Of a stretch of DNA of 40,053 nt, positions 1-40,053 are shown in pieces. Position 1 is the stretch's first letter. The number at the start of each line of letters is the position of its first letter. The position numbers and the translations under genes are program-made. The notes below the pieces were generated by a model, which did not search any database, was not told where the DNA came from, and worked only from the letters and a program-made list of their open reading frames with translations. The DNA is from a virus, in the IMG/VR virus record IMGVR_UViG_3300026472_000012, positions 1-40,053 of that record; one strand, written 5' to 3'.

Positions 1-122
1 AGCTAGACCCTTAGCGACAGTGCGACCAAGCTTGATTCCTAAAGTTTCATCACCTATCTTTTTGCCTAAAATAAAGTCTGTGGCTTTTTGTTGTAGATCT
101 TTTAGCGTATTACCAAGTTCTT
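1..122. repeat. Terminal overlap copy 1 (identical to 39932..40053)
   Basis: I aligned the two ends base by base: agctagacccttagcgacag...taccaagttctt occurs at both. Confidence 0.95.
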
Positions 123-1170
123 TAATCTTACTAATTGCAGTTTCAATACCACCTGCCCACTTCTCCCAATCTATGAGAGATTCACCGCCACGTTTCCATG
201 TTTGATAGTCATCCCAAAGCAAAGCAATCGCAGCCGCTAATGCTAAGACAATACCAATAGGAGATGCCAAAAAGACTAAACGCAAGGCTTTGAAAATATT
301 GAGTAGCCCTGTAAGCATCGGTAATAATTTTGCGAACTTTCCAATCGCTGAAAATAGACCACCAAATACCACCGTCAGCATTGCGATTTTAAGTCCCGCT
401 GCTAAGAATGTTTTGATATGTGGATTGAGCTGCCCAAACCAATGAATCGCAAATTGAATCAATTGATTAAGCAATTTAAGAACAGGGATTAAAGCTTTAC
501 CCGCAGTCATTACAATGACTTCCATCAATGCCTTTAACTGCATCGTCATATCACGCCACTGATATGCAAACTCTTGACCTGACTTCGCTAACTCATCATT
601 TAACCCCATGTCTTTACGTAACTTTTGGTATTTCTCCATTTCAGAAGTAAATTTACCGTCACGCATCGCCATCAAAGTAGATTCATCAATTCCAAGTGCA
701 TTGGCATAGTTATTCGCTTTGTAATACTCCATGCCTTGCAAAGTTTTAGACAAATCTTTCATGACTTCGACACGGTCACGCATCTGACCGTTTTGATCGC
801 GAGTCGTTACACCCAAGCCCTTAAGCATTCCCTCATAGCCGGGTGATTCACGAAGTTTACGTGCAACACTTTCAAGTGATGAAATCGCACCTTCAGCACT
901 ACCACCCATCTGACTAATAGCATCGCCATACGCTCTGATATTGTTTGCAGACGCACCAATTCGTTGACTTGAGTAATACAACTTTTCAAGCTCGTTAGCA
1001 GTCTTTGCAACAGCCAATACCGCTGTACTCGCTAATGCAATCAAAGCACGACTAAGTAAATTTGCCGATTTTTCATTACTGTCTAAAGCTTCTTTTGACT
1101 TTTTAGCACCTGTATCATCTGTTTTAAATGTCAGTGCAACTAAGAAATCACGAATTACTGTACTACTCAT
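1..1170 (-). CDS. Tail tape measure protein, 5' part (continues across the circular junction into 38942..40053)
   Basis: ATG at 1170..1168 follows AAGGA. My hand translation (MSSTVIRDFLVALTFKTDD...LGRTVAKGLA) has no stop down to position 1, exactly 390 codons. It is missing from the ORF track because it runs off the edge. It lies after the sheath, tube and chaperone genes. Confidence 0.85.
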   Translation of the reverse strand, partial: MSSTVIRDFLVALTFKTDDTGAKKSKEALDSNEKSANLLSRALIALASTAVLAVAKTANELEKLYYSSQRIGASANNIRAYGDAISQMGGSAEGAISSLESVARKLRESPGYEGMLKGLGVTTRDQNGQMRDRVEVMKDLSKTLQGMEYYKANNYANALGIDESTLMAMRDGKFTSEMEKYQKLRKDMGLNDELAKSGQEFAYQWRDMTMQLKALMEVIVMTAGKALIPVLKLLNQLIQFAIHWFGQLNPHIKTFLAAGLKIAMLTVVFGGLFSAIGKFAKLLPMLTGLLNIFKALRLVFLASPIGIVLALAAAIALLWDDYQTWKRGGESLIDWEKWAGGIETAISKIKELGNTLKDLQQKATDFILGKKIGDETLGIKLGRTVAKGLA

Positions 1171-1213
1171 TTCTCAATCCTTCGGCAGTAAAAAAGCCAC
1201 TCAATGAGCGGCT

Positions 1214-1444
1214 TTATTTTTGTTCACTTGCCAGCGATTCATTATCAACCAGCACATTTAATGCATCATTCATTAAAGCGATATCCGCTAAATCAACTGT
1301 GCCATCTTTAAGGGATTCATACTTACACATCCCTTTGATGACTGGTCTTAATAACCAGTCTTCACCCTCAGGTAAACTTCGCCAATTTATTGAGGATTCA
1401 TCGCTTCGGTCTGACTCGTACGCAGACCGGCTATAAAATTTCCC
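1214..1444 (-). CDS. -1 frameshift extension of the tail assembly chaperone (gpG/gpGT-type fusion product)
   Basis: The -1 frame is open from the slippery heptamer GGGAAAT to TAA at 1216..1214 (GKFYSRSAYESDRSDESSINWRSLPEGEDWLLRPVIKGMCKYESLKDGTVDLADIALMNDALNVLVDNESLASEQK). It sits in the canonical position between chaperone and tape measure. Confidence 0.7.
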   Translation of the reverse strand, partial: GKFYSRSAYESDRSDESSINWRSLPEGEDWLLRPVIKGMCKYESLKDGTVDLADIALMNDALNVLVDNESLASEQK

Positions 1445-1854
1445 AAACTGCTCCGTAGTACAGCAATAACAAGCGGAAGAATTTCTGACATTTCCATATC
1501 ATCAAATGCAGGCGCTTTATTGCGCCATACAGCTGCATATCCATCATTCGTTTTACGACGAACCACAGACATACATTTACTAATGACATAGTCTGTATGC
1601 TCATCCGACATTTCTGCTAAAGCTTCTGCAAATGGCTGGAAAGATGGGGCTAAGGTTTTAAGGATATCAATATCAAAAGATTCACTATCTTTAATATCCG
1701 TTAAACCCGCTTCCACAATATTGACAAGAAGCGGTGCAATGGTTGGAATTACAGGTGCAATACGGCGCGATACATGCAATTGATCCAATGCATTAAGTTT
1801 GCCAACTTGGTACTGGTATTCACCTACATTAATAAGATCATTCACTATAAGCAC
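1387..1854 (-). CDS. Tail assembly chaperone (gpG-like, zero-frame product)
   Basis: 155-aa ORF between the tube and tape-measure genes, with a frameshift site near its 3' end. Confidence 0.7.
   Translation of the reverse strand: MLIVNDLINVGEYQYQVGKLNALDQLHVSRRIAPVIPTIAPLLVNIVEAGLTDIKDSESFDIDILKTLAPSFQPFAEALAEMSDEHTDYVISKCMSVVRRKTNDGYAAVWRNKAPAFDDMEMSEILPLVIAVLRSSLGNFIAGLRTSQTEAMNPQ
1438..1444 (-). promoter_or_regulatory. Slippery heptamer G_GGA_AAT for programmed -1 ribosomal frameshifting
   Basis: The plus-strand atttccc reverse-complements to GGGAAAT, in X_XXY_YYZ phase with the 1387..1854 ORF (TTG GGA AAT). Confidence 0.65.
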
Positions 1855-2284
1855 CTTGTTTAATTTCTAGTTTAATTGCATCAAATACCCATTCCACAAT
1901 ATCTGCATCTTTTGCATAACGTAAATCAGGGCGTTTCTTAAAAGCACATTTTGAAGCTGTGCCATTATCACCACCACCTGTGTGGTTAAAAGTAATGGTA
2001 CTTTTACCCCATTTTTTTGTATTGCCTTTCTGTAGATCGTACAAGTCAGATAATTTGGCATTCGTTGGTGAAGTTTTTAACAAACGGATTGTCACCTGCC
2101 CTGAATTATCACAATGTAGGGAATGCATACCTTCGCCATCAGCACCAATGGTCATGGTGTTTTTGTCATTGGCCATTGCAAAGCTAATCCCTTCTTCAGC
2201 AATTGCTGCGCCATAACCAACATCAATGGTTGCATCTGCACTTGTCAAAGTGGCTTGAACATCTAAAAAACTATATGTAGACAT
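1838..2284 (-). CDS. Tail tube protein (DUF3277-like, by recollection)
   Basis: 148-aa ORF directly downstream of the sheath gene. Size and position are typical of a tube protein. Confidence 0.7.
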   Translation of the reverse strand: MSTYSFLDVQATLTSADATIDVGYGAAIAEEGISFAMANDKNTMTIGADGEGMHSLHCDNSGQVTIRLLKTSPTNAKLSDLYDLQKGNTKKWGKSTITFNHTGGGDNGTASKCAFKKRPDLRYAKDADIVEWVFDAIKLEIKQGAYSE

Positions 2285-2299
2285 TAATTATTTTCCTTA

Positions 2300-3451
2300 T
2301 TAGCGGTTCACATTCACTAAAACATCAACAGAATGAATAGCACCTGCAAGCTTAACTGCGACTTGAATTGGTGTTGCTTTACGTGCTTCACGATCCGCTT
2401 GAGATTGCCCATCAATCGGATTTGAATATACGTAATAGCCTTTTGTTAATGTATCGCCAGTTTTAAGTACACCAAATGGTTCGCCATTCCAAACACCAGG
2501 CGCGACCATACCATTCGTCACGGCTTGCTCTAAAGCATGTTCAAGAACAGAACAATGACGATTCATACCACCTTCTGTTTGCGGTATCTTGGTTGGGCTG
2601 GTGTAGTGCAGATTCCAAAGGGCTGTTTGTAGATAGTTTTGCAACCAATCCAAACCATGACGTTCATCAATAAACGTGCCACTACACATCACGCCCTCTT
2701 GAATAATGGCAGTGTCATTATTGTATTCAGCAAATACGTTGCAGCTCTTTTCCTTGAGAGTAAATGCTTCACTGGTACGCAGATATTCAGCGGCAATGGT
2801 TGGTTCTTGTTTAAATTTAAGCGTAATAGCTGTGTTATTTGCTAAGAAGTTTACGGCAAATGTTCTAGATAACAGTGAAACAACAGCATAAGGCGAATCA
2901 GATGAGTACTGAATCAATGTACGTTCAAACTTACGTTGATTTAGTTTATAAGCAATATCCGAAGGTAAAGCATCACCGTATTTGGGCGTTTTTACCTCTG
3001 GATCTTGTGTTGTAAAACCAACGATTCGATAGGGTACAGACGCTTCAATAAATTCAGAAACGGAGATAATGTCATTATCTGTAGCGATAGGTGCAGCTAC
3101 AGCCAAACCATACCAAGCATTTGAAGCATCAGCACAAGCTTGAACAGCTTCTAAAAGAGTTTCAGGTTGCTCTAGTTCACTTCCTGCCTGTACCCAACGA
3201 CCGATATATACAATTGTTGGACGAGGGTTTTGGGCAAAGAATTTAAGTGCAGCGTTATATTCAGGATCCATAGTCCCAAAGTCTTCAGCAACTTCAGTGA
3301 TGGATGAATAAGGTCGTACTCGTTCAAGATTTGAAATAACAGGTGTCGAGCCTAAAATTAATAATGAGCCAAAACTTCGAGTTTGGGCTGCTAATGGTGT
3401 TAAGGACATTTGAACGTTAACAACCATATCCACAGGTAATGCTGCGGCCAT
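2300..3451 (-). CDS. Tail sheath protein (DUF3383-like, by recollection)
   Basis: 383-aa ORF upstream of the tube gene in the tail module. Confidence 0.7.
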   Translation of the reverse strand: MAAALPVDMVVNVQMSLTPLAAQTRSFGSLLILGSTPVISNLERVRPYSSITEVAEDFGTMDPEYNAALKFFAQNPRPTIVYIGRWVQAGSELEQPETLLEAVQACADASNAWYGLAVAAPIATDNDIISVSEFIEASVPYRIVGFTTQDPEVKTPKYGDALPSDIAYKLNQRKFERTLIQYSSDSPYAVVSLLSRTFAVNFLANNTAITLKFKQEPTIAAEYLRTSEAFTLKEKSCNVFAEYNNDTAIIQEGVMCSGTFIDERHGLDWLQNYLQTALWNLHYTSPTKIPQTEGGMNRHCSVLEHALEQAVTNGMVAPGVWNGEPFGVLKTGDTLTKGYYVYSNPIDGQSQADREARKATPIQVAVKLAGAIHSVDVLVNVNR

Positions 3452-3459
3452 AAGATCTC

Positions 3460-3990
3460 CTAGCCCATATTAATATTAGGCGGTGTATTAAAGGTTAAAA
3501 TTGAATATTGGTTAACTTTTTTACGGCGCATCGTAAATTCAAAATCACAGCGACGTAACCACTGTTGATTTAAAAGCTCGGGCACATTGCGCAAAGGTTG
3601 AGAGCGAACAAAGGTGATTCCAAACTGTTTTAACTGATTGTTATTTTGAGGAATGCTCAAACTTGCTTTAAAAAGTTTTGCTTTGGATTCAGCATAAGGT
3701 CCGTAAAAAGAAACCAGAACCTCAAAGGATTCATGATTAACTGAATTACCATCACTATCGATATACGGGGAATCAGGATCATCGCTTCCAGTAATACCGA
3801 TTGAAGCCCAAGTCACTTTAGGTTCAGGAAGTTTTGGGGCGGTTGGTTGCCATCGTGGACGGACTAAAGGAGGATCTAAACCAGTCAAATTAGCGACATG
3901 GCTTTGTAATATATCCTCTAATGCGCTATCACTTGGCAAAGCTTCGCTATCAGATGACAGATAGCCACCTGTTGCACTGGTATTTGACAT
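3460..3990 (-). CDS. Neck/tail-terminator region protein (function not resolved)
   Basis: 176-aa ORF tightly packed between the connector genes and the sheath. Confidence 0.4.
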   Translation of the reverse strand: MSNTSATGGYLSSDSEALPSDSALEDILQSHVANLTGLDPPLVRPRWQPTAPKLPEPKVTWASIGITGSDDPDSPYIDSDGNSVNHESFEVLVSFYGPYAESKAKLFKASLSIPQNNNQLKQFGITFVRSQPLRNVPELLNQQWLRRCDFEFTMRRKKVNQYSILTFNTPPNINMG

Positions 3991-4365
3991 TTAAGAGCCT
4001 GCGAAAGGTTTTAAGATACAAACTGCTTGAATAAAGCCACGTCCAAAATGGGAATAATCATCAACTTTACTGACAAAGTAATGTTTGTTTTTCCAACAAA
4101 TCTCATCTGAATCACGATGATCAAGACCTGCCACTAAATTGAATTTAGTCACGATATTGATTGCACCTGACACAATAGAACCATCAGGTCGCCGATCAAT
4201 ATTGATACCATCATTGGAAGTCACCACACCTGAAAAACGAGTGCTGCATTGTTTATTTTCAGCACGACCTTTTTCATTTACGCTCTGTGTGTTTCGAATA
4301 CAGACAATATTCTTATCCATAAATCGTGGATCACGAAGTACACTTGTCACATCAAGCCTAGCCAT
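3991..4365 (-). CDS. Head-tail connector/tail completion protein (putative)
   Basis: ATG at 4365 lies 5 nt after GAGG and overlaps the upstream stop. The track start at 4371 is GTG. Confidence 0.45.
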   Translation of the reverse strand: MARLDVTSVLRDPRFMDKNIVCIRNTQSVNEKGRAENKQCSTRFSGVVTSNDGINIDRRPDGSIVSGAINIVTKFNLVAGLDHRDSDEICWKNKHYFVSKVDDYSHFGRGFIQAVCILKPFAGS

Positions 4366-4897
4366 CTTCACCTCGCTTACGAATTACATAAGTAATGCTT
4401 TTACGCATTTCCGCTGTATCAATTAAAGGTCTAACTAAGCCTGCTTGAGGTTGTCCTTGATCAAGTTGCTTTAAATATTCCTTTGCCCCTTTTCTACCTC
4501 GATTTGCGCGATTTTGAATCGTCAGTATGGATAAAGGAGCAAAACTACCTTCGACAAAATAAAGACGTACCGCATTTTGAGCAATTAAACCCGCAGCGTT
4601 ATAGTGCTTCATTACAACCTCAGACTTACCATCTAATGCAGCATCAACCGCTTTACAAAGTCGATCAGCAATTTTATTTTGGACAGTTGCAATACCTGGT
4701 ACTAAAAAAGGACGAGCAGGAATGTTCTTTGCAGGTGAGCCCTTTTCATGTAGATATCCTAACTGCGCATTGGTCATTCCATCTGCATCAGTTCGTGCCT
4801 CTCCGTGAGGAATCCCCACTAAAACTTCTTTTTCCATCAATTCTTGTATAGATTCCAAAATACCAATAAGCCCTGCACCTTTCATGGAAACGGTCAT
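4358..4897 (-). CDS. Head-tail joining / virion morphogenesis protein (HK97 gp10 or Mu G-like)
   Basis: Contains the IPARPFLVPGI motif. The likely start is ATG 4897 (MTVSMKGAG), in an ATGA overlap with the upstream stop. The track N-terminal extension overlaps the preceding gene. Confidence 0.55.
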   Translation of the reverse strand: MTVSMKGAGLIGILESIQELMEKEVLVGIPHGEARTDADGMTNAQLGYLHEKGSPAKNIPARPFLVPGIATVQNKIADRLCKAVDAALDGKSEVVMKHYNAAGLIAQNAVRLYFVEGSFAPLSILTIQNRANRGRKGAKEYLKQLDQGQPQAGLVRPLIDTAEMRKSITYVIRKRGEDG

Positions 4898-36238: not shown

Positions 36239-36531
36239 AACTCCACCCAATAAAGTTTAAGCGTATCTCCTACACTTTTATAATCAGGATTCTCTAAACC
36301 GTCGTTATAAACCCAAAGCTCTCCCTTGATTATGTGTTGATATTGCTTGAGAAGATTTACACCTGTCACAAAAGCAATCCCACTTATCAAGGGATTTAAA
36401 TCAACATCAGAGATATCTAAAAACCAACCTACAGGATCTCGCCAAATCAATCGAAACTGATAATTTGTACTATTCAATACCGTATAAAATTTTTGAGAGC
36501 CGTTCTTTAAATCAATTTCGAATGTTGTCAT
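36235..36531 (-). CDS. Small tail/baseplate protein
   Basis: 98-aa ORF coupled on both sides within the baseplate module. Confidence 0.45.
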   Translation of the reverse strand: MTTFEIDLKNGSQKFYTVLNSTNYQFRLIWRDPVGWFLDISDVDLNPLISGIAFVTGVNLLKQYQHIIKGELWVYNDGLENPDYKSVGDTLKLYWVEL

Positions 36532-37161
36532 TTATGCCACCCATACATCCCTTATTTTATTTAAAAATGATTCATCTTTCTTAAGCTCTGGTTGCACAGT
36601 CCCTGCATCATGCAAAGGTGCTGTTTTTTCCGGTTCTTTCTGCTGCTCAATCATTAGATTAGTTTCTAAGGTATTTGTGATGATGACCTTTTTTAAAGTC
36701 ATCGTAACTAACAAGGCATTTTCAGATTCTAAGTCTGTAGTTACTTTTAGCGACTTGATTAGCATGTCTGTGTAAAGTCGCTTACCTGTCATGATGACTA
36801 ATCGAATTGCTTTTCTTTGCAATGCTTGTAAAGCTTCGTAAACTCCAATAAGTGACGGAGTACCAGCAATAAAACTATTCCCAAGCAAACCATTTAAACG
36901 CCCCGCACTTTCAGACCAACCTAATTTAATAGTCACTTCTGGTGGATTCATATAAGCGTGATCTGAAATTGGTGAGCCTATTTCTACTGGATGCTCAGTA
37001 ATATTGAGTTCATCACTATGTTGTTCTTCAATCGTTACATCAGCAAATAAGCCCATGATCGTGCGTTTCTTTGCAAACAAAAGCGAACCTGTTGTTTGAA
37101 TTTCACTGTTATATTGGCTTGCTTGAGTGAGTGCAGATTGGACAATTGATGGTAGTGCCAT
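36532..37161 (-). CDS. Tail/baseplate protein in the Mu gp43 (DNA-circulation-N-like) position
   Basis: Start trimmed to ATG 37161 (MALPSIVQSAL). The track N-terminal extension would run through a terminator hairpin. Contains the ITEHPVEIGSPISDHAY motif. Confidence 0.5.
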   Translation of the reverse strand: MALPSIVQSALTQASQYNSEIQTTGSLLFAKKRTIMGLFADVTIEEQHSDELNITEHPVEIGSPISDHAYMNPPEVTIKLGWSESAGRLNGLLGNSFIAGTPSLIGVYEALQALQRKAIRLVIMTGKRLYTDMLIKSLKVTTDLESENALLVTMTLKKVIITNTLETNLMIEQQKEPEKTAPLHDAGTVQPELKKDESFLNKIRDVWVA

Positions 37162-37177
37162 ACTTTTCTCCAGGTAA

Positions 37178-37199
37178 TAAAAAACCCACCGAAGTGGGC
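37178..37199 (-). terminator. Intrinsic terminator after the DUF4282-like membrane gene
   Basis: Minus strand: CCCAC-TTCG-GTGGG followed by TTTTTTATT. Confidence 0.7.
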
Positions 37200-37249
37200 T
37201 TGTGGGCTGTATGAGTGATATGAAAATCAAGGCTACTAGGGTGCTTTTC

Positions 37250-37555
37250 TCATAATGGACTGTTGTTATTTCTAGCCTTATCTAAAAGTTCAGCAGTACG
37301 TCGTGTATTTTGTTGAATTTTAAAAATTACTACCCAAAATTCAGCCCACATACGCACAATCAATGTTCCTACAAAAATTACTAAAACAGCAACAAGACAT
37401 CTACCTAAATCATTTATTTCATGTAGAAACGGAATATTTACAGCATTAATCGCGATTGATAGTCCCAAAAAAACAACAATAGCTAGCATTATCCAATAAA
37501 TAAAAGTAATGATTTTTGTTGATAACACAGCATCTAAAAAGAATAAATTTTTCAT
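37250..37555 (-). CDS. Small multi-pass membrane protein (DUF4282-like, tentative)
   Basis: 101 aa with two long hydrophobic segments and RMWAEFWVVIFKI. Confidence 0.55.
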   Translation of the reverse strand: MKNLFFLDAVLSTKIITFIYWIMLAIVVFLGLSIAINAVNIPFLHEINDLGRCLVAVLVIFVGTLIVRMWAEFWVVIFKIQQNTRRTAELLDKARNNNSPL

Positions 37556-37621
37556 ACGTCTTCCACGAGTATTGATTTATTATGTATACAAAATATACGC
37601 TTCAATATTATGGAAATCTAA

Positions 37622-37975
37622 ATGAAAAAACTACTTCTAATTGCTTGCTGTACGTTTAGTGTTGGGGCGTGGGCTGATTGCGCTAATTTACAAGGTGAAA
37701 AATATTCAAAATGCCTTAATACCGAATTAGATAACAGTCAAAAACTTCTCAAAAACACTCTTAATAGTATTTTTGATTCACTCCCTGAACGATCTAAAAA
37801 TGATTTTAAAGACTCTCAACAAACTTGGTTAAAATATCGAGAGTCAGAATGTCGATATCAATTAGGCTTAAATTCTACTGGTTCTGACTTTGCTACAGAT
37901 GCTACAATTTATGACACTCAATGTAAACTTGAGTTGAATAAACAAAGAATAAAAACACTAAGTGATAACAATTAA
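37622..37975 (+). CDS. Secreted DUF1311/LprI-like (lysozyme-inhibitor family) protein
   Basis: Signal peptide MKKLLLIACCTFSVGAWA. The mature part has C...C, QQTWLKYRESEC and a C...R spacing typical of DUF1311. Confidence 0.6.
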   Translation: MKKLLLIACCTFSVGAWADCANLQGEKYSKCLNTELDNSQKLLKNTLNSIFDSLPERSKNDFKDSQQTWLKYRESECRYQLGLNSTGSDFATDATIYDTQCKLELNKQRIKTLSDNN

Positions 37976-38022
37976 CCATATATTCCTTTTGAATTTCTAG
38001 TCATTTGCAGATTAACCACGTC
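37972..38022 (-). repeat. Diverged remnant copy 3 of the tape-measure 3' end
   Basis: The minus strand reads ...AATCTGCAAATGACTAGAAATTCAAAAGGAATATATGGTTAA (NLQMTRNSKGIYG*). The real end reads NLQMTRNSKGLWG*. Confidence 0.8.
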
Positions 38023-38403
38023 TTATTTTAATATTGTATAAGTAATATCTTCATTCGGTTGATTTCCCCATCCTGTCCAAATTTCTGTAAGTACAACTTT
38101 ATTTCCTTTCAAAGATTTAACTTTTGAAATAAAAACTCTAGGTGGACTAGTCTCATTTGGTTGATTACTTTCAACTAACATAAAAGTATCATCACTTATC
38201 CATTTAACTCTTGCAGGAAGATCAAGTGAACATTTTGATAGTGGTTGTTCACCCATTAATCCTGAACTCTTAGACAAAGAAATACCAGCGCATGTAGCTC
38301 CATCTATACGCAAAGTTTTTCCTGTAAGTAAGTTTTTATAATCAACTGCATTAGCCACACAACTTAAAAACATTCCCAAGCTAATTAAAATTAGTTTTTT
38401 CAT
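38023..38403 (-). CDS. Secreted protein, unknown function
   Basis: Start ATG 38403 gives MKKLILISLGMFLSCVANA, a signal peptide. The track N-terminal extension is the out-of-frame remnant of the tape-measure 3' end. Confidence 0.6.
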   Translation of the reverse strand: MKKLILISLGMFLSCVANAVDYKNLLTGKTLRIDGATCAGISLSKSSGLMGEQPLSKCSLDLPARVKWISDDTFMLVESNQPNETSPPRVFISKVKSLKGNKVVLTEIWTGWGNQPNEDITYTILK

Positions 38404-38465
38404 GTAAAAATTCCCACTGAATTTCGAGTCATTTGTAAATTCACAGCATCTTGCTCTTTTCGTAC
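38400..38465 (-). repeat. Diverged remnant copy 2 of the tape-measure 3' end
   Basis: The minus strand reads GTACGAAAAGAGCAAGATGCTGTGAATTTACAAATGACTCGAAATTCA... (VRKEQDAVNLQMTRNS), matching the real tape-measure tail at 38942..39007. Confidence 0.85.
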
Positions 38466-38504
38466 AAAAACATATCATAGAGTCATTCTAAAAAGGATTC
38501 CAAA

Positions 38505-38945
38505 ATGAAAAAACTTCTTCTAATTGCTTGCTGTACTTTAAGTATTGGGGCTTGGGCAGAGACAGTAAATAATCAATTTAAAATTACTCCCCCTTTTGGT
38601 AAAACATCATTGGGTAGATGTCATATGGACACATGTTCATGGGGTAAAGTTCTTAATAAAAAAATAATTACTTCTTCTAAAACATCTCTGAATGTTGAAG
38701 CCACCATCTTAGGAGGAGAATCACCAATGTCTAAATCAAGTAAAGTGAAATGGAATAAAACGCCACATAAAGTAATCGCCGTTTGTTCTAAAGAGAATCC
38801 AAGTGTCATCATTGATGATCAGGTAACACAACTAGATGTTAAAGACTTTCCTGCTGTTGAGGAAAGTGATGTAAATGTCTATTTTCTAATCTGTCATGAT
38901 TATATAAATGGGGCATATGATGGGGCAAAAAAATTCAAATATTAA
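38505..38945 (+). CDS. Secreted protein, unknown function
   Basis: Signal peptide MKKLLLIACCTLSIGAWA is nearly identical, at the DNA level too, to that of 37622..37975. The mature part is unrelated. Its stop overlaps the tape-measure stop at TTAA. Confidence 0.65.
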   Translation: MKKLLLIACCTLSIGAWAETVNNQFKITPPFGKTSLGRCHMDTCSWGKVLNKKIITSSKTSLNVEATILGGESPMSKSSKVKWNKTPHKVIAVCSKENPSVIIDDQVTQLDVKDFPAVEESDVNVYFLICHDYINGAYDGAKKFKY

Positions 38946-40053
38946 CCCCATAATCCCTTAGAATTTCTAGTCATTTGTAGGTTTACTGCATCTTGCTCTT
39001 TTCGTACTGCTTTTGCGGTCATCATAGCATCACCACCAGTGACATGAATATCAGTTTTTTGATTGATATTCACGTTTCTGTTTGACGACTGTGTATTAGA
39101 AATATTTGGAATAACTGGATTTATATTGTTCGGCACTTCGGCATTTTGGGCAAATTTTGCAATAGAACCTCTATTAATTTCAACATTAGAAATTGCTTTT
39201 TTGCTTAAATCATTTTCAAGAGCATTCAGATTATTTCGTCTACGTTGATCATGTGGTTGCCAATCAAATTTAATTCGAGTGCCATTAGGTCCTTTAATTG
39301 TTTCTTGGCCATAGGCCCATCCGACGTATATTTTACCCAACTCAGCAGCGAATGTTTCGGGATCAAAATTTGGATTGTTCCAAAATTTAGGTAATTTTGA
39401 AGCATATTTATCATCTTTCATTTCTGATACAGCAAACTCAGCCATAGCATTTAGTGCTGCTTGCCCTTGAACAATTTTACCTTTTTCATCAAGTAATCCT
39501 TTTTGCTGTAAATAATTCTTTAATTTTGTAGCTCTTTCTCTATTCCATGATAAAAAACCCATATTGGAGATAGAATTACCTTTCCCATCTTTGGCTGCAT
39601 CTGTATGGAATCCAAACATAGTCTTTGCATTGTATTCATTTTCACGTCCTACTTCTGCTGTAATTGCTAATGCTTGATTTTTTGAAAGTCCTGCATTTAA
39701 GAACGCTTCATAGACCATCATTCGATTATCAGACTTGTTACCTAGTTTTAAACTGCTGTTTGCCTGAACCTTTTCTTGCACATCCCCCGCTACAGCATTT
39801 GCCATTCCAACAATTCTATTCACTCCAGCTAAAGCCGTTTGTTGAAGAGTTTGGGTTGATTGTTGCTTAGTATTACCTGTACTGGCTTTTTCAGCATCAA
39901 GTGCTGCTTGAGCTTCTTTATTACCAATAAAAGCTAGACCCTTAGCGACAGTGCGACCAAGCTTGATTCCTAAAGTTTCATCACCTATCTTTTTGCCTAA
40001 AATAAAGTCTGTGGCTTTTTGTTGTAGATCTTTTAGCGTATTACCAAGTTCTT
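38942..40053 (-). CDS. Tail tape measure protein, 3' part (with a lysozyme-like C-terminal domain, tentative)
   Basis: Same frame as 1..1170 across the junction (...LGRTVAKGLA|FIGNKEAQAALDAEK...). Track ORF 38942..39823 is only its internal tail. The joined gene is 2160 nt (719 aa). AITAEVGRENEYN...GFLSWNRERA resembles phage-tail-lysozyme-type domains. Confidence 0.8.
   Translation of the reverse strand, partial: ELGNTLKDLQQKATDFILGKKIGDETLGIKLGRTVAKGLAFIGNKEAQAALDAEKASTGNTKQQSTQTLQQTALAGVNRIVGMANAVAGDVQEKVQANSSLKLGNKSDNRMMVYEAFLNAGLSKNQALAITAEVGRENEYNAKTMFGFHTDAAKDGKGNSISNMGFLSWNRERATKLKNYLQQKGLLDEKGKIVQGQAALNAMAEFAVSEMKDDKYASKLPKFWNNPNFDPETFAAELGKIYVGWAYGQETIKGPNGTRIKFDWQPHDQRRRNNLNALENDLSKKAISNVEINRGSIAKFAQNAEVPNNINPVIPNISNTQSSNRNVNINQKTDIHVTGGDAMMTAKAVRKEQDAVNLQMTRNSKGLWG
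39932..40053. repeat. Terminal overlap copy 2 (identical to 1..122)
   Basis: Same 122-nt string as the window start. This indicates a circular molecule or circular assembly. Confidence 0.95.

What the first reader, a model, noticed from the sequence alone, without database searches (positions are those of the whole stretch)
37622..37975. Periplasmic LprI/DUF1311-like protein encoded beside a tape measure with a lysozyme-like C-terminal domain
The 117-aa product has a cleavable signal peptide and the cysteine/QxxWxxYRxxxC pattern I associate with DUF1311, the family that includes the lysozyme inhibitor LprI. The C-terminal ~200 aa of the tape measure, encoded immediately next to this island, look like a phage-tail-lysozyme-type muralytic domain (AITAEVGRENEYN...GFLSWNRERA). 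A lysogen that secretes an inhibitor of the tail-borne muralytic enzyme could block cell-wall penetration by superinfecting relatives. I am not aware that this mechanism has been described. The neighbouring secreted proteins (38023..38403, 38505..38945) and the membrane protein (37250..37555) could act in the same envelope-level exclusion.
Basis: inference. Interest (0 to 1): 0.65.

Follow-up and report, generated by a model that had tools for sequence, protein, structure and literature searches.

The report
Leftover immunity-like gene beside phage tape measure
The secreted DUF1311 ("LprI") gene is real, but it looks like a leftover partner of an earlier version of the phage's tape-measure tip rather than an inhibitor of the present lysozyme-like tip, and it belongs to a swappable enzyme-plus-partner cassette system in Acinetobacter prophages that may set which phages can superinfect a lysogen.

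Summary
37622-37975(+) encodes a secreted 117-aa PF07007/DUF1311 protein. The 719-aa tape measure protein (TMP) carries a lysozyme-like PF18013 domain. The proposed pairing does not hold. None of 54 deduplicated TMPs with this lysozyme2 domain has a DUF1311 neighbour. In Acinetobacter relatives they are abutted by a different secreted family (X111), and here by the 146-aa gene.

The identical LprI protein directly abuts a TMP with a different C-terminus in two other contigs. In the window it is still followed by 52 nt of that older TMP end.

Across related Acinetobacter E217-like prophages, the TMP C-terminal muralytic domain is interchangeable. The convergent secreted gene overlapping the TMP stop always matches the domain type: SLT-like with DUF1311-A 11/11, SleB-like with DUF1311-B 8/10, and no cross pairs. 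Older modules are stacked behind as orphans, as in Rhs/CDI arrays.

The genes are under purifying selection. In A. baumannii RNA-seq the DUF1311-A unit is the most abundant transcript of the tail region.

Best reading (inferred, untested): these are prophage-expressed periplasmic immunity-like binders of incoming TMP muralytic domains. The mechanism class is already known (T4 Spackle-gp5; DUF1311-type T6SS immunity). The cassette/orphan organisation on a tape measure appears undescribed.

The parts
37622..37975 (+). Gene for a 117-aa secreted DUF1311/LprI-family protein (subtype C). The signal peptide is codons 1-18 (37622-37675) and the mature protein is about 99 aa with 4 conserved Cys.
   Evidence: The protein is identical in 13 contigs, and all 5 DNA differences are synonymous.
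37976..38027 (-). Remnant A: the last ~16 codons (..VNLQMTRNSKGIYG*) of an older, L007-type TMP 3' end, left attached to the LprI gene.
   Evidence: Window and L007 are 99.1% identical over 36400-38027, then homology stops. Repeat family D1. Decoded.
38023..38403 (-). Gene for a 126-aa secreted protein with no family assignment. It is the orphan partner of a second older TMP end.
   Evidence: It is colinear (74.5% over 491 nt) with the gene that directly follows an slt72-type TMP in L014.
38400..38465 (-). Remnant B: the last ~20 codons of another TMP end (..RKEQDAVNLQMTRNSVGIFT*). Its stop overlaps the ATG of the 126-aa gene.
   Evidence: A natural variant joins 38445 to 38988, so there this copy is the live TMP end.
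38505..38945 (+). Gene for a 146-aa secreted protein. Its signal-peptide DNA is 90% identical to that of LprI. It converges on the present TMP and overlaps its stop by 4 nt, so it is the positional partner of the lysozyme2-type TMP.
   Evidence: No Pfam, PHROG, NCBIfam or PADLOC family. No relative in IMG/VR.
38942..40053 (-). C-terminal 370 codons of the 719-aa tape measure protein (it continues at 123-1170 across the circular junction). The conserved C-terminal tail is about 38942-39180.
39392..39727 (-). Phage_lysozyme2 (PF18013)-type muralytic domain of the TMP. The motif AEVGRENEY has nearly invariant Glu residues.
37250..37555 (-). Gene for a 101-aa DUF4282 membrane protein. It runs in the same direction as the tail genes and diverges from LprI.
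   Evidence: Homologues occupy the same place in L031 and L030-35.
36532..37161 (-). Dit-like distal tail protein (209 aa from the ATG at 37161). It forms the downstream border of the island.
37182..37201 (-). Terminator-like hairpin between the DUF4282 gene and Dit.
   Evidence: This is a pattern match only.

Best explanation
The LprI-like gene is one module of a cassette system at the 3' end of the tape measure gene of Acinetobacter E217-like temperate myophages.

Shown: the TMP C-terminus carries one of several interchangeable peptidoglycan-hydrolase domains (SLT-like, a second transglycosylase-like type, SleB/Hydrolase_2, Phage_lysozyme2, and an unclassified L007 type). The small secreted-protein gene that converges on and overlaps the TMP stop is specific to the domain type. 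When a new domain-plus-partner module replaces the old one, old partners stay behind as orphans.

The window holds three stacked modules. The first is LprI with a stub of its former TMP end. The second is the 126-aa gene with a second stub. The third is the 146-aa gene abutting the live lysozyme2-type TMP.

Inferred: the partners are exported to the periplasm of the lysogen. The only TMP they can meet there is that of an incoming virion. They bind and neutralise its muralytic C-terminus, as Spackle does or as a T6SS immunity protein does. This would protect the wall and/or block superinfection. The LprI protein would then act against phages with the L007-type TMP tip, not against the resident lysozyme2-type tip. 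The stack of orphans would widen the set of excluded relatives.
For: - **Domain identities:**
- **Pairing, deduplicated:** SLT-like with DUF1311-A 11/11. SleB-like with DUF1311-B 8/10. Lysozyme2 with X111 4 times and with the window's 146-aa gene once. Lysozyme2 with DUF1311 0/54. L007 type with DUF1311-C 1/1. There are no cross pairs.
- **Swapping on one backbone:** the domain types occur on near-identical phage backbones, with the same Dit and the same TMP N-terminus. Modules are therefore exchanged, yet they stay matched.
- **Orphan stacking:** window remnants. Natural variants V1 (L007/L008) and V2 (joint 38445>38988). DUF1311-B sits behind DUF1311-A next to SLT-type TMPs in 3 contigs.
- **Purifying selection:** 5/5 synonymous differences in LprI. 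dN/dS is 0.05-0.16 for subtype A.
- **Expression:** in 6 RNA-seq runs from 3 studies, the contig over the DUF1311-A unit of an Ab105-1phi-like prophage has 5-40 times the depth of the flanking tail-gene contigs.
- **Precedents:** T4 Spackle-gp5 (PMC7677548). The DUF1311 immunity protein Etsi4 rescues periplasmic Etse4 toxicity (PMC12981562). The LprI model shows a weak fold match to TsiV3, the immunity protein of the VgrG3 lysozyme-like domain (4nsr/4nso/4noo, TM 0.41-0.61).
Against: - No binding, inhibition or exclusion data exist for any of these proteins.
- The partner gene physically overlaps the TMP stop, so perfect pairing could be linkage alone.
- 2/10 SleB-type and 4/4 slt72-type TMPs have no convergent partner. 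Four contigs carry DUF1311-B away from any TMP.
- The L007-type domain could not be classified, because only its last 168 aa are known.
- The RNA evidence comes from unstranded assembled contigs, and concerns subtype A in A. baumannii, not this gene.
- Tail-borne muralytic domains are often dispensable for infection, so inhibiting one may give only weak exclusion (general knowledge).
- The fold match to TsiV3 is weak, and there is none to Spackle.
Confidence: 0.4

Rival explanations
1. One reading: the LprI-like protein inhibits the resident TMP's Phage_lysozyme2 domain. It would thereby exclude this phage and its closest relatives.
For: Both domains are present in one genome, about 1 kb apart. 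A DUF1311-like fold (TsiV3) does inhibit a lysozyme-like spike domain in V. cholerae T6SS. That link rests on a fold match and on PDB entry titles.
Against: 0/54 lysozyme2-type TMPs have a DUF1311 neighbour. Acinetobacter lysozyme2 TMPs pair with X111 instead. The identical LprI protein abuts other TMP C-termini in V1 and V2. The gene carries the stub of another TMP end.
Confidence: 0.08
2. The LprI-like protein is a lysogenic-conversion gene unrelated to phage tails. It would be an orphan immunity protein against peptidoglycan-degrading T6SS effectors of competing bacteria, or a shield against animal or insect lysozymes.
For: DUF1311 proteins are reported as T6SS immunity proteins (PMC12981562, PMC12135965). 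T6SS is common in Acinetobacter (general knowledge). The phage is found in insect, phyllosphere and soil samples. The ATCC 19606 paper interprets an lprI gene this way, by annotation only (PMC8914354).
Against: This does not explain why the DUF1311 subtype tracks the TMP domain type with no cross pairs. It also does not explain why unrelated secreted families occupy the same overlapping position. No T6SS gene lies nearby. The subfamily is nearly absent from 185,579 species-representative genomes by pattern scan, which returned one distant hit. There is no MliC domain. ScwA, which has DUF1311 but no MliC domain, gives no lysozyme protection (PMC7933661).
Confidence: 0.15
3. The gene is a periplasmic moron with some other role. 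Examples are modulating host peptidoglycan enzymes, as ScwA does, or envelope signalling, as UmoC-like proteins do. It would sit in a recombination hot spot, and the pairing with TMP types would be pure linkage.
For: ScwA controls MltD levels (PMC7933661). There is a weak NCBIfam similarity to UmoC, 30.6 bits against a cut-off of 120. The TMP-Dit gap is a general moron site holding many unrelated genes. The partner overlaps the TMP stop, so linkage is maximal.
Against: Recombination is evidently frequent in this region (three variants of one phage, plus stacked orphans). Yet abutting pairs are never mismatched in 25 deduplicated cases. At least three unrelated secreted families occupy the same convergent overlapping slot, each with its own enzyme type. 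This is easier to explain by a relation to the enzyme than by a host-directed function.
Confidence: 0.25
4. Superinfection exclusion works through the TMP but not by enzyme inhibition. The secreted proteins would bind the TMP C-terminal region and block channel formation or DNA passage.
For: The genetic pattern is the same as for the best explanation. Only the TMP C-terminus reaches the periplasm. TMP-dependent exclusion proteins are known in other phages (HK97 gp15, lactococcal Sie2009; from my own knowledge, not checked here).
Against: The conserved C-terminal tail is shared between TMP types (65-72% identity between window, L007 and L014). The partners follow the variable enzyme domain, which points to the domain as the target.
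Confidence: 0.1

Closest known systems
T4 Spackle (gp61.3) and the gp5 tail-spike lysozyme
   Same: Spackle is a small phage-encoded periplasmic protein that binds and inhibits the lysozyme carried by the tail of superinfecting virions. It spares the endolysin and gives superinfection exclusion (PMC7677548). This is the mechanism proposed here.
   Different: The fold and family are unrelated, and Spackle structures are not among the top Foldseek hits. Spackle is an early gene of a virulent phage, not a prophage moron. Its target is the baseplate spike, not the tape measure. No cassette polymorphism or orphan stacking is described for it.
DUF1311-type T6SS immunity proteins (EHEC Etsi4/Etse4; neighbours of WHIX effectors) and V. 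cholerae TsiV3/VgrG3
   Same: These are periplasmic, Cys-containing helical proteins encoded next to a cell-wall-degrading domain. That domain is delivered by a contractile, phage-tail-like machine, and the immunity protein neutralises it (PMC12981562, PMC12135965). The fold match to TsiV3 has TM 0.41-0.61.
   Different: Here the neighbour is a phage TMP, not a VgrG/PAAR/Hcp-linked effector. No T6SS genes are present. The sequence relation to TsiV3 is not detectable. Activity is untested.
M. tuberculosis LprI (Rv1541c), which gave PF07007 its name
   Same: It shares the DUF1311 domain with conserved cysteines.
   Different: LprI is a lipoprotein with an additional MliC domain, which is the proven c-type lysozyme inhibitor. 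The window protein has no MliC domain and most likely a signal-peptidase-I signal (PMC7933661).
Salmonella ScwA
   Same: It is a soluble periplasmic DUF1311 protein with two disulfides. It is horizontally acquired and linked to peptidoglycan lytic enzymes (PMC7933661).
   Different: ScwA is 275 aa with an extra N-terminal region. It affects the levels of the host enzyme MltD and gives no lysozyme protection. It is not phage-borne.
Orphan toxin-tip/immunity arrays of Rhs and CDI loci (from my own knowledge)
   Same: A conserved long protein carries a swappable C-terminal domain, with the cognate small protein encoded immediately after it. Displaced modules with stubs of the former 3' end are stacked downstream.
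   Different: Here the stubs are only 16-20 codons, not whole toxin tips. The 'toxin' is a virion structural protein. Partner genes mostly converge on the TMP rather than running in the same direction.
Annotated copies in Acinetobacter phages Ab105-1phi, AbTJ and BUCTT20
   Same: They show the same arrangement: a TMP with a convergent 118-aa PF07007 gene overlapping its stop.
   Different: They belong to subtype A (26-31% identical to the window protein) and pair with an SLT-like TMP. They are annotated as hypothetical or, automatically, as 'lysozyme inhibitor LprI family protein'. No function has been studied.

Membership tests
PF07007 / DUF1311 (LprI domain family) | HMM score above Pfam's gathering threshold | tested here: met
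   45.9 bits against a cut-off of 22, E 8e-12, covering profile positions 14-106 of 106.
PF07007 / DUF1311 (LprI domain family) | Four conserved cysteines and the QxxWxxYR...C motif | tested here: met
   C20, C31, C77 and C101 are nearly invariant. W69 is invariant. Y72-R73 and R109 are conserved in a 45-sequence alignment.
PF07007 / DUF1311 (LprI domain family) | Helical-bundle fold as in the solved member 3gi7 | tested here: met
   AF2 pLDDT 87.7, three long helices. Top Foldseek hit is 3gi7, probability 1.0, TM 0.64/0.72. A profile search also finds 3gi7 and 6ar7.
Bona fide lysozyme inhibitor of the LprI/MliC type | MliC (PF09864) inhibitory domain | tested here: not met
   PF07007 was the only Pfam hit at E up to 1.
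Bona fide lysozyme inhibitor of the LprI/MliC type | Lipoprotein anchoring (lipobox at the end of a full-length signal peptide) | tested here: inconclusive
   LIAC at residues 6-9 fits a lipobox pattern but would leave an 8-residue signal. These Cys are not conserved in relatives, whereas AWA|DC is. No signal-peptide predictor was available.
Bona fide lysozyme inhibitor of the LprI/MliC type | Inhibits lysozyme activity | not testable with these tools
   This needs a biochemical assay.
Spackle-like superinfection exclusion (by function, not homology) | Exported to the periplasm | tested here: inconclusive
   A typical n-h-c signal with AWA|D is visible, and residues 1-20 have low confidence in the model. 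This is prediction by eye only.
Spackle-like superinfection exclusion (by function, not homology) | Binds and inhibits the tail-borne muralytic domain of incoming phage | not testable with these tools
   Co-folding of two chains was not available. Only the genetic co-variation bears on this.
Spackle-like superinfection exclusion (by function, not homology) | Expressed in the already infected or lysogenic cell | tested here: inconclusive
   Subtype A unit in A. baumannii: RNA contigs at 5-40 times the depth of flanking regions in 6 runs, but without strand information. For the window gene there are only low-depth metatranscriptome contigs, which also cover tail genes.
T6SS effector-immunity pair | Encoded beside a T6SS effector (VgrG/PAAR/Hcp-linked) | tested here: not met
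   All neighbours are phage tail genes.
Polymorphic-toxin-like cassette with orphan modules | Conserved body, variable C-terminal domain, and a type-specific small gene immediately after it | tested here: met
   Five TMP C-terminal types occur on shared backbones. Abutting partners match the type in 25/25 deduplicated pairs.
Polymorphic-toxin-like cassette with orphan modules | Displaced modules carrying stubs of the former 3' end, stacked downstream | tested here: met
   Remnants A and B in the window. Natural variants lack the later modules. DUF1311-B sits behind DUF1311-A in 3 contigs, there without visible stubs.
Polymorphic-toxin-like cassette with orphan modules | The small protein neutralises the cognate domain | not testable with these tools
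   This needs experiments or multimer modelling.

The most novel reading that the evidence does not exclude
Temperate Acinetobacter myophages run a polymorphic 'effector-immunity' system on their tape measure protein. Interchangeable C-terminal peptidoglycan hydrolase domains each come with a cognate periplasmic neutralising protein expressed from the prophage. Lysogens accumulate orphan neutralisers, as Rhs/CDI/T6SS loci accumulate orphan immunity genes. The TMP tip type and the set of partners would then define superinfection-exclusion groups, and would drive an arms race that explains why tail muralytic domains are so modular.
Probability: 0.3. Interest if true: 0.8.

Novelty: new variant of a known kind. 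Interest (0 to 1): 0.6.

Why it matters
If the inference holds, three things would follow.
- It would extend Spackle-type exclusion from one virulent coliphage to a modular, prophage-borne system.
- It would give DUF1311 and several orphan secreted families a testable function.
- It would explain the domain shuffling at tape-measure C-termini as an escape-and-exclusion arms race that parallels T6SS, Rhs and CDI immunity evolution.

It would also matter for choosing therapeutic Acinetobacter phages. Resident prophages of the Ab105-1phi type are common in A. baumannii and could blunt phages that carry the matching tail enzyme.

If the pairing is only linkage, the result is still a clear case of cassette recombination at a moron hot spot. 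It is also a warning against reading 'lysozyme inhibitor LprI' annotations literally.

Tried and rejected
- **Known phages:** megablast and tblastn of the region and of the LprI protein against 50,697 phage records found nothing. Only Dit and subtype A found Acinetobacter phages.
- **Protein searches with LprI:** the word-indexed search gave 3 hits. The exhaustive representative search gave 63 distant DUF1311 proteins, the best at 41-44% identity.
- **Genome-collection scan:** The 4-sequence alignment returned one distant Bryobacterales locus. Chromosomal contexts, such as T6SS loci, could therefore not be sampled.
- **L007-type TMP domain:** Pfam gave nothing significant. IMG/VR matched only the shared tail. 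The last protein search found only short fragments. Its enzyme class stays unknown. The motif AAHLKGAGNALKW resembles the SLT 'AYNAGxGxV' motif, but that is only my impression.
- **Other island genes:** the 146-aa protein has no relatives in IMG/VR. The 126-aa protein has only two.
- **Promoter scan:** it found fewer matches than in shuffled sequence and none upstream of LprI, so it was uninformative.
- **PADLOC and NCBIfam:** PADLOC found nothing. NCBIfam found only a sub-threshold UmoC similarity.
- **BFVD fold search:** nothing significant.
- **Raw-read RNA run X69:** it does not contain the prophage.
- **X111 versus the 146-aa protein:** I considered them homologous and rejected it, since only the signal peptide aligns.
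- **L014's 161-aa ORF:** I considered it a DUF1311 protein and rejected it. Only the signal peptide is shared, and Pfam gives no hit.

Full report
**What is in the window**

The window is a circularly permuted contig of a ~39.9-kb temperate myophage. Its two ends share an exact 122-nt overlap and its GC content is 37.6%. It encodes an integrase, a holin with a GH24 endolysin, and E217/Pam3-type tail genes.

The nearest described phages are Acinetobacter prophages: Ab105-1phi, AbTJ, BUCTT20, A785.1 and MD-2021a. Their Dit proteins are 57-63% identical to the window's. The same phage turns up in phyllosphere, insect and soil samples.

The tape measure protein (TMP) is intact across the contig junction. 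It has 719 aa and is encoded by 38942-40053 joined to 123-1170 on the minus strand.

**Checking the observation**

The ORF at 37622-37975(+) is a true DUF1311 member.
- It scores 45.9 bits against PF07007, where the cut-off is 22.
- It has the four family cysteines plus W69, Y72-R73 and R109.
- Its confident three-helix model has the DUF1311 crystal structure 3gi7 as best PDB match.
- The N-terminus reads as a cleavable signal (AWA|DC).
- There is no MliC domain.

The TMP region 39392-39727 matches PF18013 Phage_lysozyme2 only marginally, at 29.9 bits against 28.2. Three other lines support the assignment.
- Close homologues carry the same assignment.
- MD-2021a's TMP gives a clear 45-bit hit.
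- The model's best structural matches are the phi29 gp13 tail lysozyme, MltE and hen lysozyme, though at weak E-values.

The gene is not adjacent to the TMP, however. Two genes and 966 nt lie between them.

**Anatomy of the island**

The last ~50 nt of the TMP gene occur three times: at 38954-39007 (the live end), 38412-38465 and 37984-38037.
- The stub next to LprI still encodes ..VNLQMTRNSKGIYG*.
- The stub next to the 126-aa gene encodes ..RKEQDAVNLQMTRNSVGIFT*. Its stop overlaps that gene's ATG.
- LprI and the 146-aa gene share 58 nt of signal-peptide DNA at 90% identity, and they share the same stop/TMP-end junction.

Natural variants show the order of events.
- In L007 and L008 the identical LprI protein directly overlaps the stop of a TMP with a different C-terminal region. 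Window and L007 are 99.1% identical from 36400 to 38027, which is 52 nt past the LprI stop. Homology then ends.
- A metatranscriptome contig joins 38445 to 38988. It lacks the 146-aa gene and diverges from the window's TMP upstream of 39162.
- The 126-aa gene plus its stub is colinear with the arrangement in L014, where the homologous gene directly follows a TMP of yet another type.

The island is therefore a stack of three modules. LprI belongs to the oldest. The 146-aa gene is the one attached to the present lysozyme2-type TMP.

**Comparative test of the pairing**

Scans of IMG/VR with Dit, the lysozyme2 domain and two DUF1311 subtypes, together with exact-protein look-ups, gave about 170 related loci.

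The TMP C-terminal domains fall into five types:
- an SLT-like type, with a weak PF01464 hit in L058;
- a second FETSG..GLIQF type, here called slt72;
- SleB/Hydrolase_2 (PF07486);
- Phage_lysozyme2;
- the unclassified L007 type.

These types occur on near-identical backbones, so they are exchanged by recombination.

I deduplicated the loci at 95% domain identity. I then recorded which gene converges on and overlaps each TMP stop:

| TMP domain type | Abutting convergent gene | Count |
|---|---|---|
| SLT-like | DUF1311 subtype A | 11/11 |
| SleB/Hydrolase_2 | DUF1311 subtype B | 8/10 |
| Phage_lysozyme2 (Acinetobacter-type lineages) | X111, an unrelated ~111-aa secreted family | 4 |
| Phage_lysozyme2 (the window) | the 146-aa gene | 1 |
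| Phage_lysozyme2 (all) | any DUF1311 | 0/54 |
| slt72 | none | 4/4 |
| L007 type | the window's DUF1311 subtype C | 1/1 |

No mismatched abutting pair was seen. X111 from MD-2021a and from an A. bereziniae contig are 60% identical.

Orphan positions also occur elsewhere. DUF1311-B sits behind DUF1311-A next to SLT-type TMPs in three contigs.

**Are the genes functional and expressed?**

All five nucleotide differences in LprI among variants are synonymous. Subtype A genes have dN/dS of 0.05-0.16.

Six RNA-seq runs from three studies contain an Ab105-1phi-like prophage. In each, the assembled contig covering the DUF1311-A moron pair has 5-40 times the k-mer depth of contigs over the neighbouring tail genes. 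That contig extends into the 3' half of the TMP gene. This fits a prophage-expressed transcript running antisense into the TMP gene. The contigs carry no strand information, and the result does not concern the window's own gene.

**Interpretation**

A protein exported to the periplasm cannot meet the TMP of its own phage during assembly. It can only meet the TMP tip of an incoming virion. That point, together with the strict type-matching, the stacking of orphans and the purifying selection, makes an immunity-like neutraliser of tail-borne muralytic domains the best-supported function.

This is inference. The overlap of partner and TMP stop means that linkage alone could produce the pattern. 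Some TMPs lack partners. No biochemical data exist.

Under this model LprI targets the L007-type tip, not the resident lysozyme2 domain. The candidates for the lysozyme2 domain are the 146-aa protein here and X111 in relatives.

**Comparison with what is known**

The mechanism class is established. T4 Spackle inhibits the gp5 tail lysozyme in the periplasm and so causes superinfection exclusion (PMC7677548).

DUF1311 proteins are reported as immunity proteins to periplasmic cell-wall T6SS effectors (PMC12981562, PMC12135965). The LprI model weakly resembles TsiV3, the immunity protein of the VgrG3 lysozyme-like domain.

The family name derives from M. tuberculosis LprI, in which the MliC domain is the proven inhibitor. 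The DUF1311-only protein ScwA does not protect against lysozyme (PMC7933661).

Copies in A. baumannii phages are annotated as hypothetical or, automatically, as 'lysozyme inhibitor LprI family protein'. A genome paper mentions lprI by annotation only (PMC8914354). In the searched literature I found no description of type-matched partner cassettes or orphan stacks at tape-measure 3' ends.

**Verdict**

- The locus is a new variant of a known kind, with a clear set of experiments that would settle it.

Noticed in passing
window 1-122 and 39932-40053: The two ends of the window share an exact 122-nt overlap. The contig is therefore a circular assembly of a ~39.9-kb phage genome, and the TMP gene is split by the window ends but intact.
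   Followed up: yes
window 37620-37677 vs 38503-38560; also L014 4312-4797, L061 4484-4822: Nearly the same signal-peptide DNA (MKKLLL..GAWA) heads unrelated mature proteins: LprI, the 146-aa protein, X111, and an SH3-like 161-aa ORF. It may serve as the second homology arm for cassette exchange, the first being the TMP 3' end.
   Followed up: partly
window 38445/38988 (run X19): A soil metatranscriptome contig joins these two points through 20 shared bases and so skips the 146-aa gene. It then diverges from the window's TMP upstream of 39162. This is a third natural variant of the island.
   Followed up: partly
L060 (Ab105-1phi) ~2200-4420: In six RNA-seq runs, one contig covers the DUF1311-A gene, the short gene before it, and the 3' ~1.3 kb of the TMP gene at 5-40 times the depth of its neighbours. 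This suggests a strong prophage transcript that reads antisense into the tape measure gene.
   Followed up: partly
L022 5402-5851 and homologues (family F1, 20 loci): A 149-153-aa protein with an N-terminal zinc ribbon and predicted membrane segments is almost always encoded just upstream of DUF1311-A, on the same strand. It may be a second component of that module.
   Followed up: no
L018 4866-5252 and homologues (family F2, 9+ loci): A 128-129-aa secreted 'HENPD/HEYPD' protein recurs in the TMP-Dit gap with slt72-type and SleB-type TMPs alike. It runs in the same direction as the tail genes and is not type-specific. No family could be assigned.
   Followed up: no
window 37250-37555: A DUF4282 membrane protein gene lies between LprI and Dit on the tail-gene strand. 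It is followed by a terminator-like hairpin (37182-37201) just before the Dit start. Homologues sit at the same place in other prophages of the group.
   Followed up: no
L009 5986-7272 (GCA_011759595.1, 1.95-Mb contig): An isolated 428-aa TMP fragment has an N-terminal part nearly identical to the window's TMP and an slt72-type domain. It sits among ordinary chromosomal genes (Fic, amino-acid permease). This looks like a decayed prophage remnant.
   Followed up: no
L175-L178 (e.g. L177 3001-3351): Here DUF1311 subtype B is not next to a TMP. It is followed by a terminator, a small membrane protein, a lipoprotein and a toxin-antitoxin-like pair. The gene therefore also travels outside the TMP context.
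   Followed up: partly
L010 (A. bereziniae MAG contig) 99-3943: A 328-aa lysozyme2-type TMP fragment with its X111 partner lies directly beside a DUF3987 primase-like gene and regulatory genes. This suggests a rearranged or satellite-like element.
   Followed up: no
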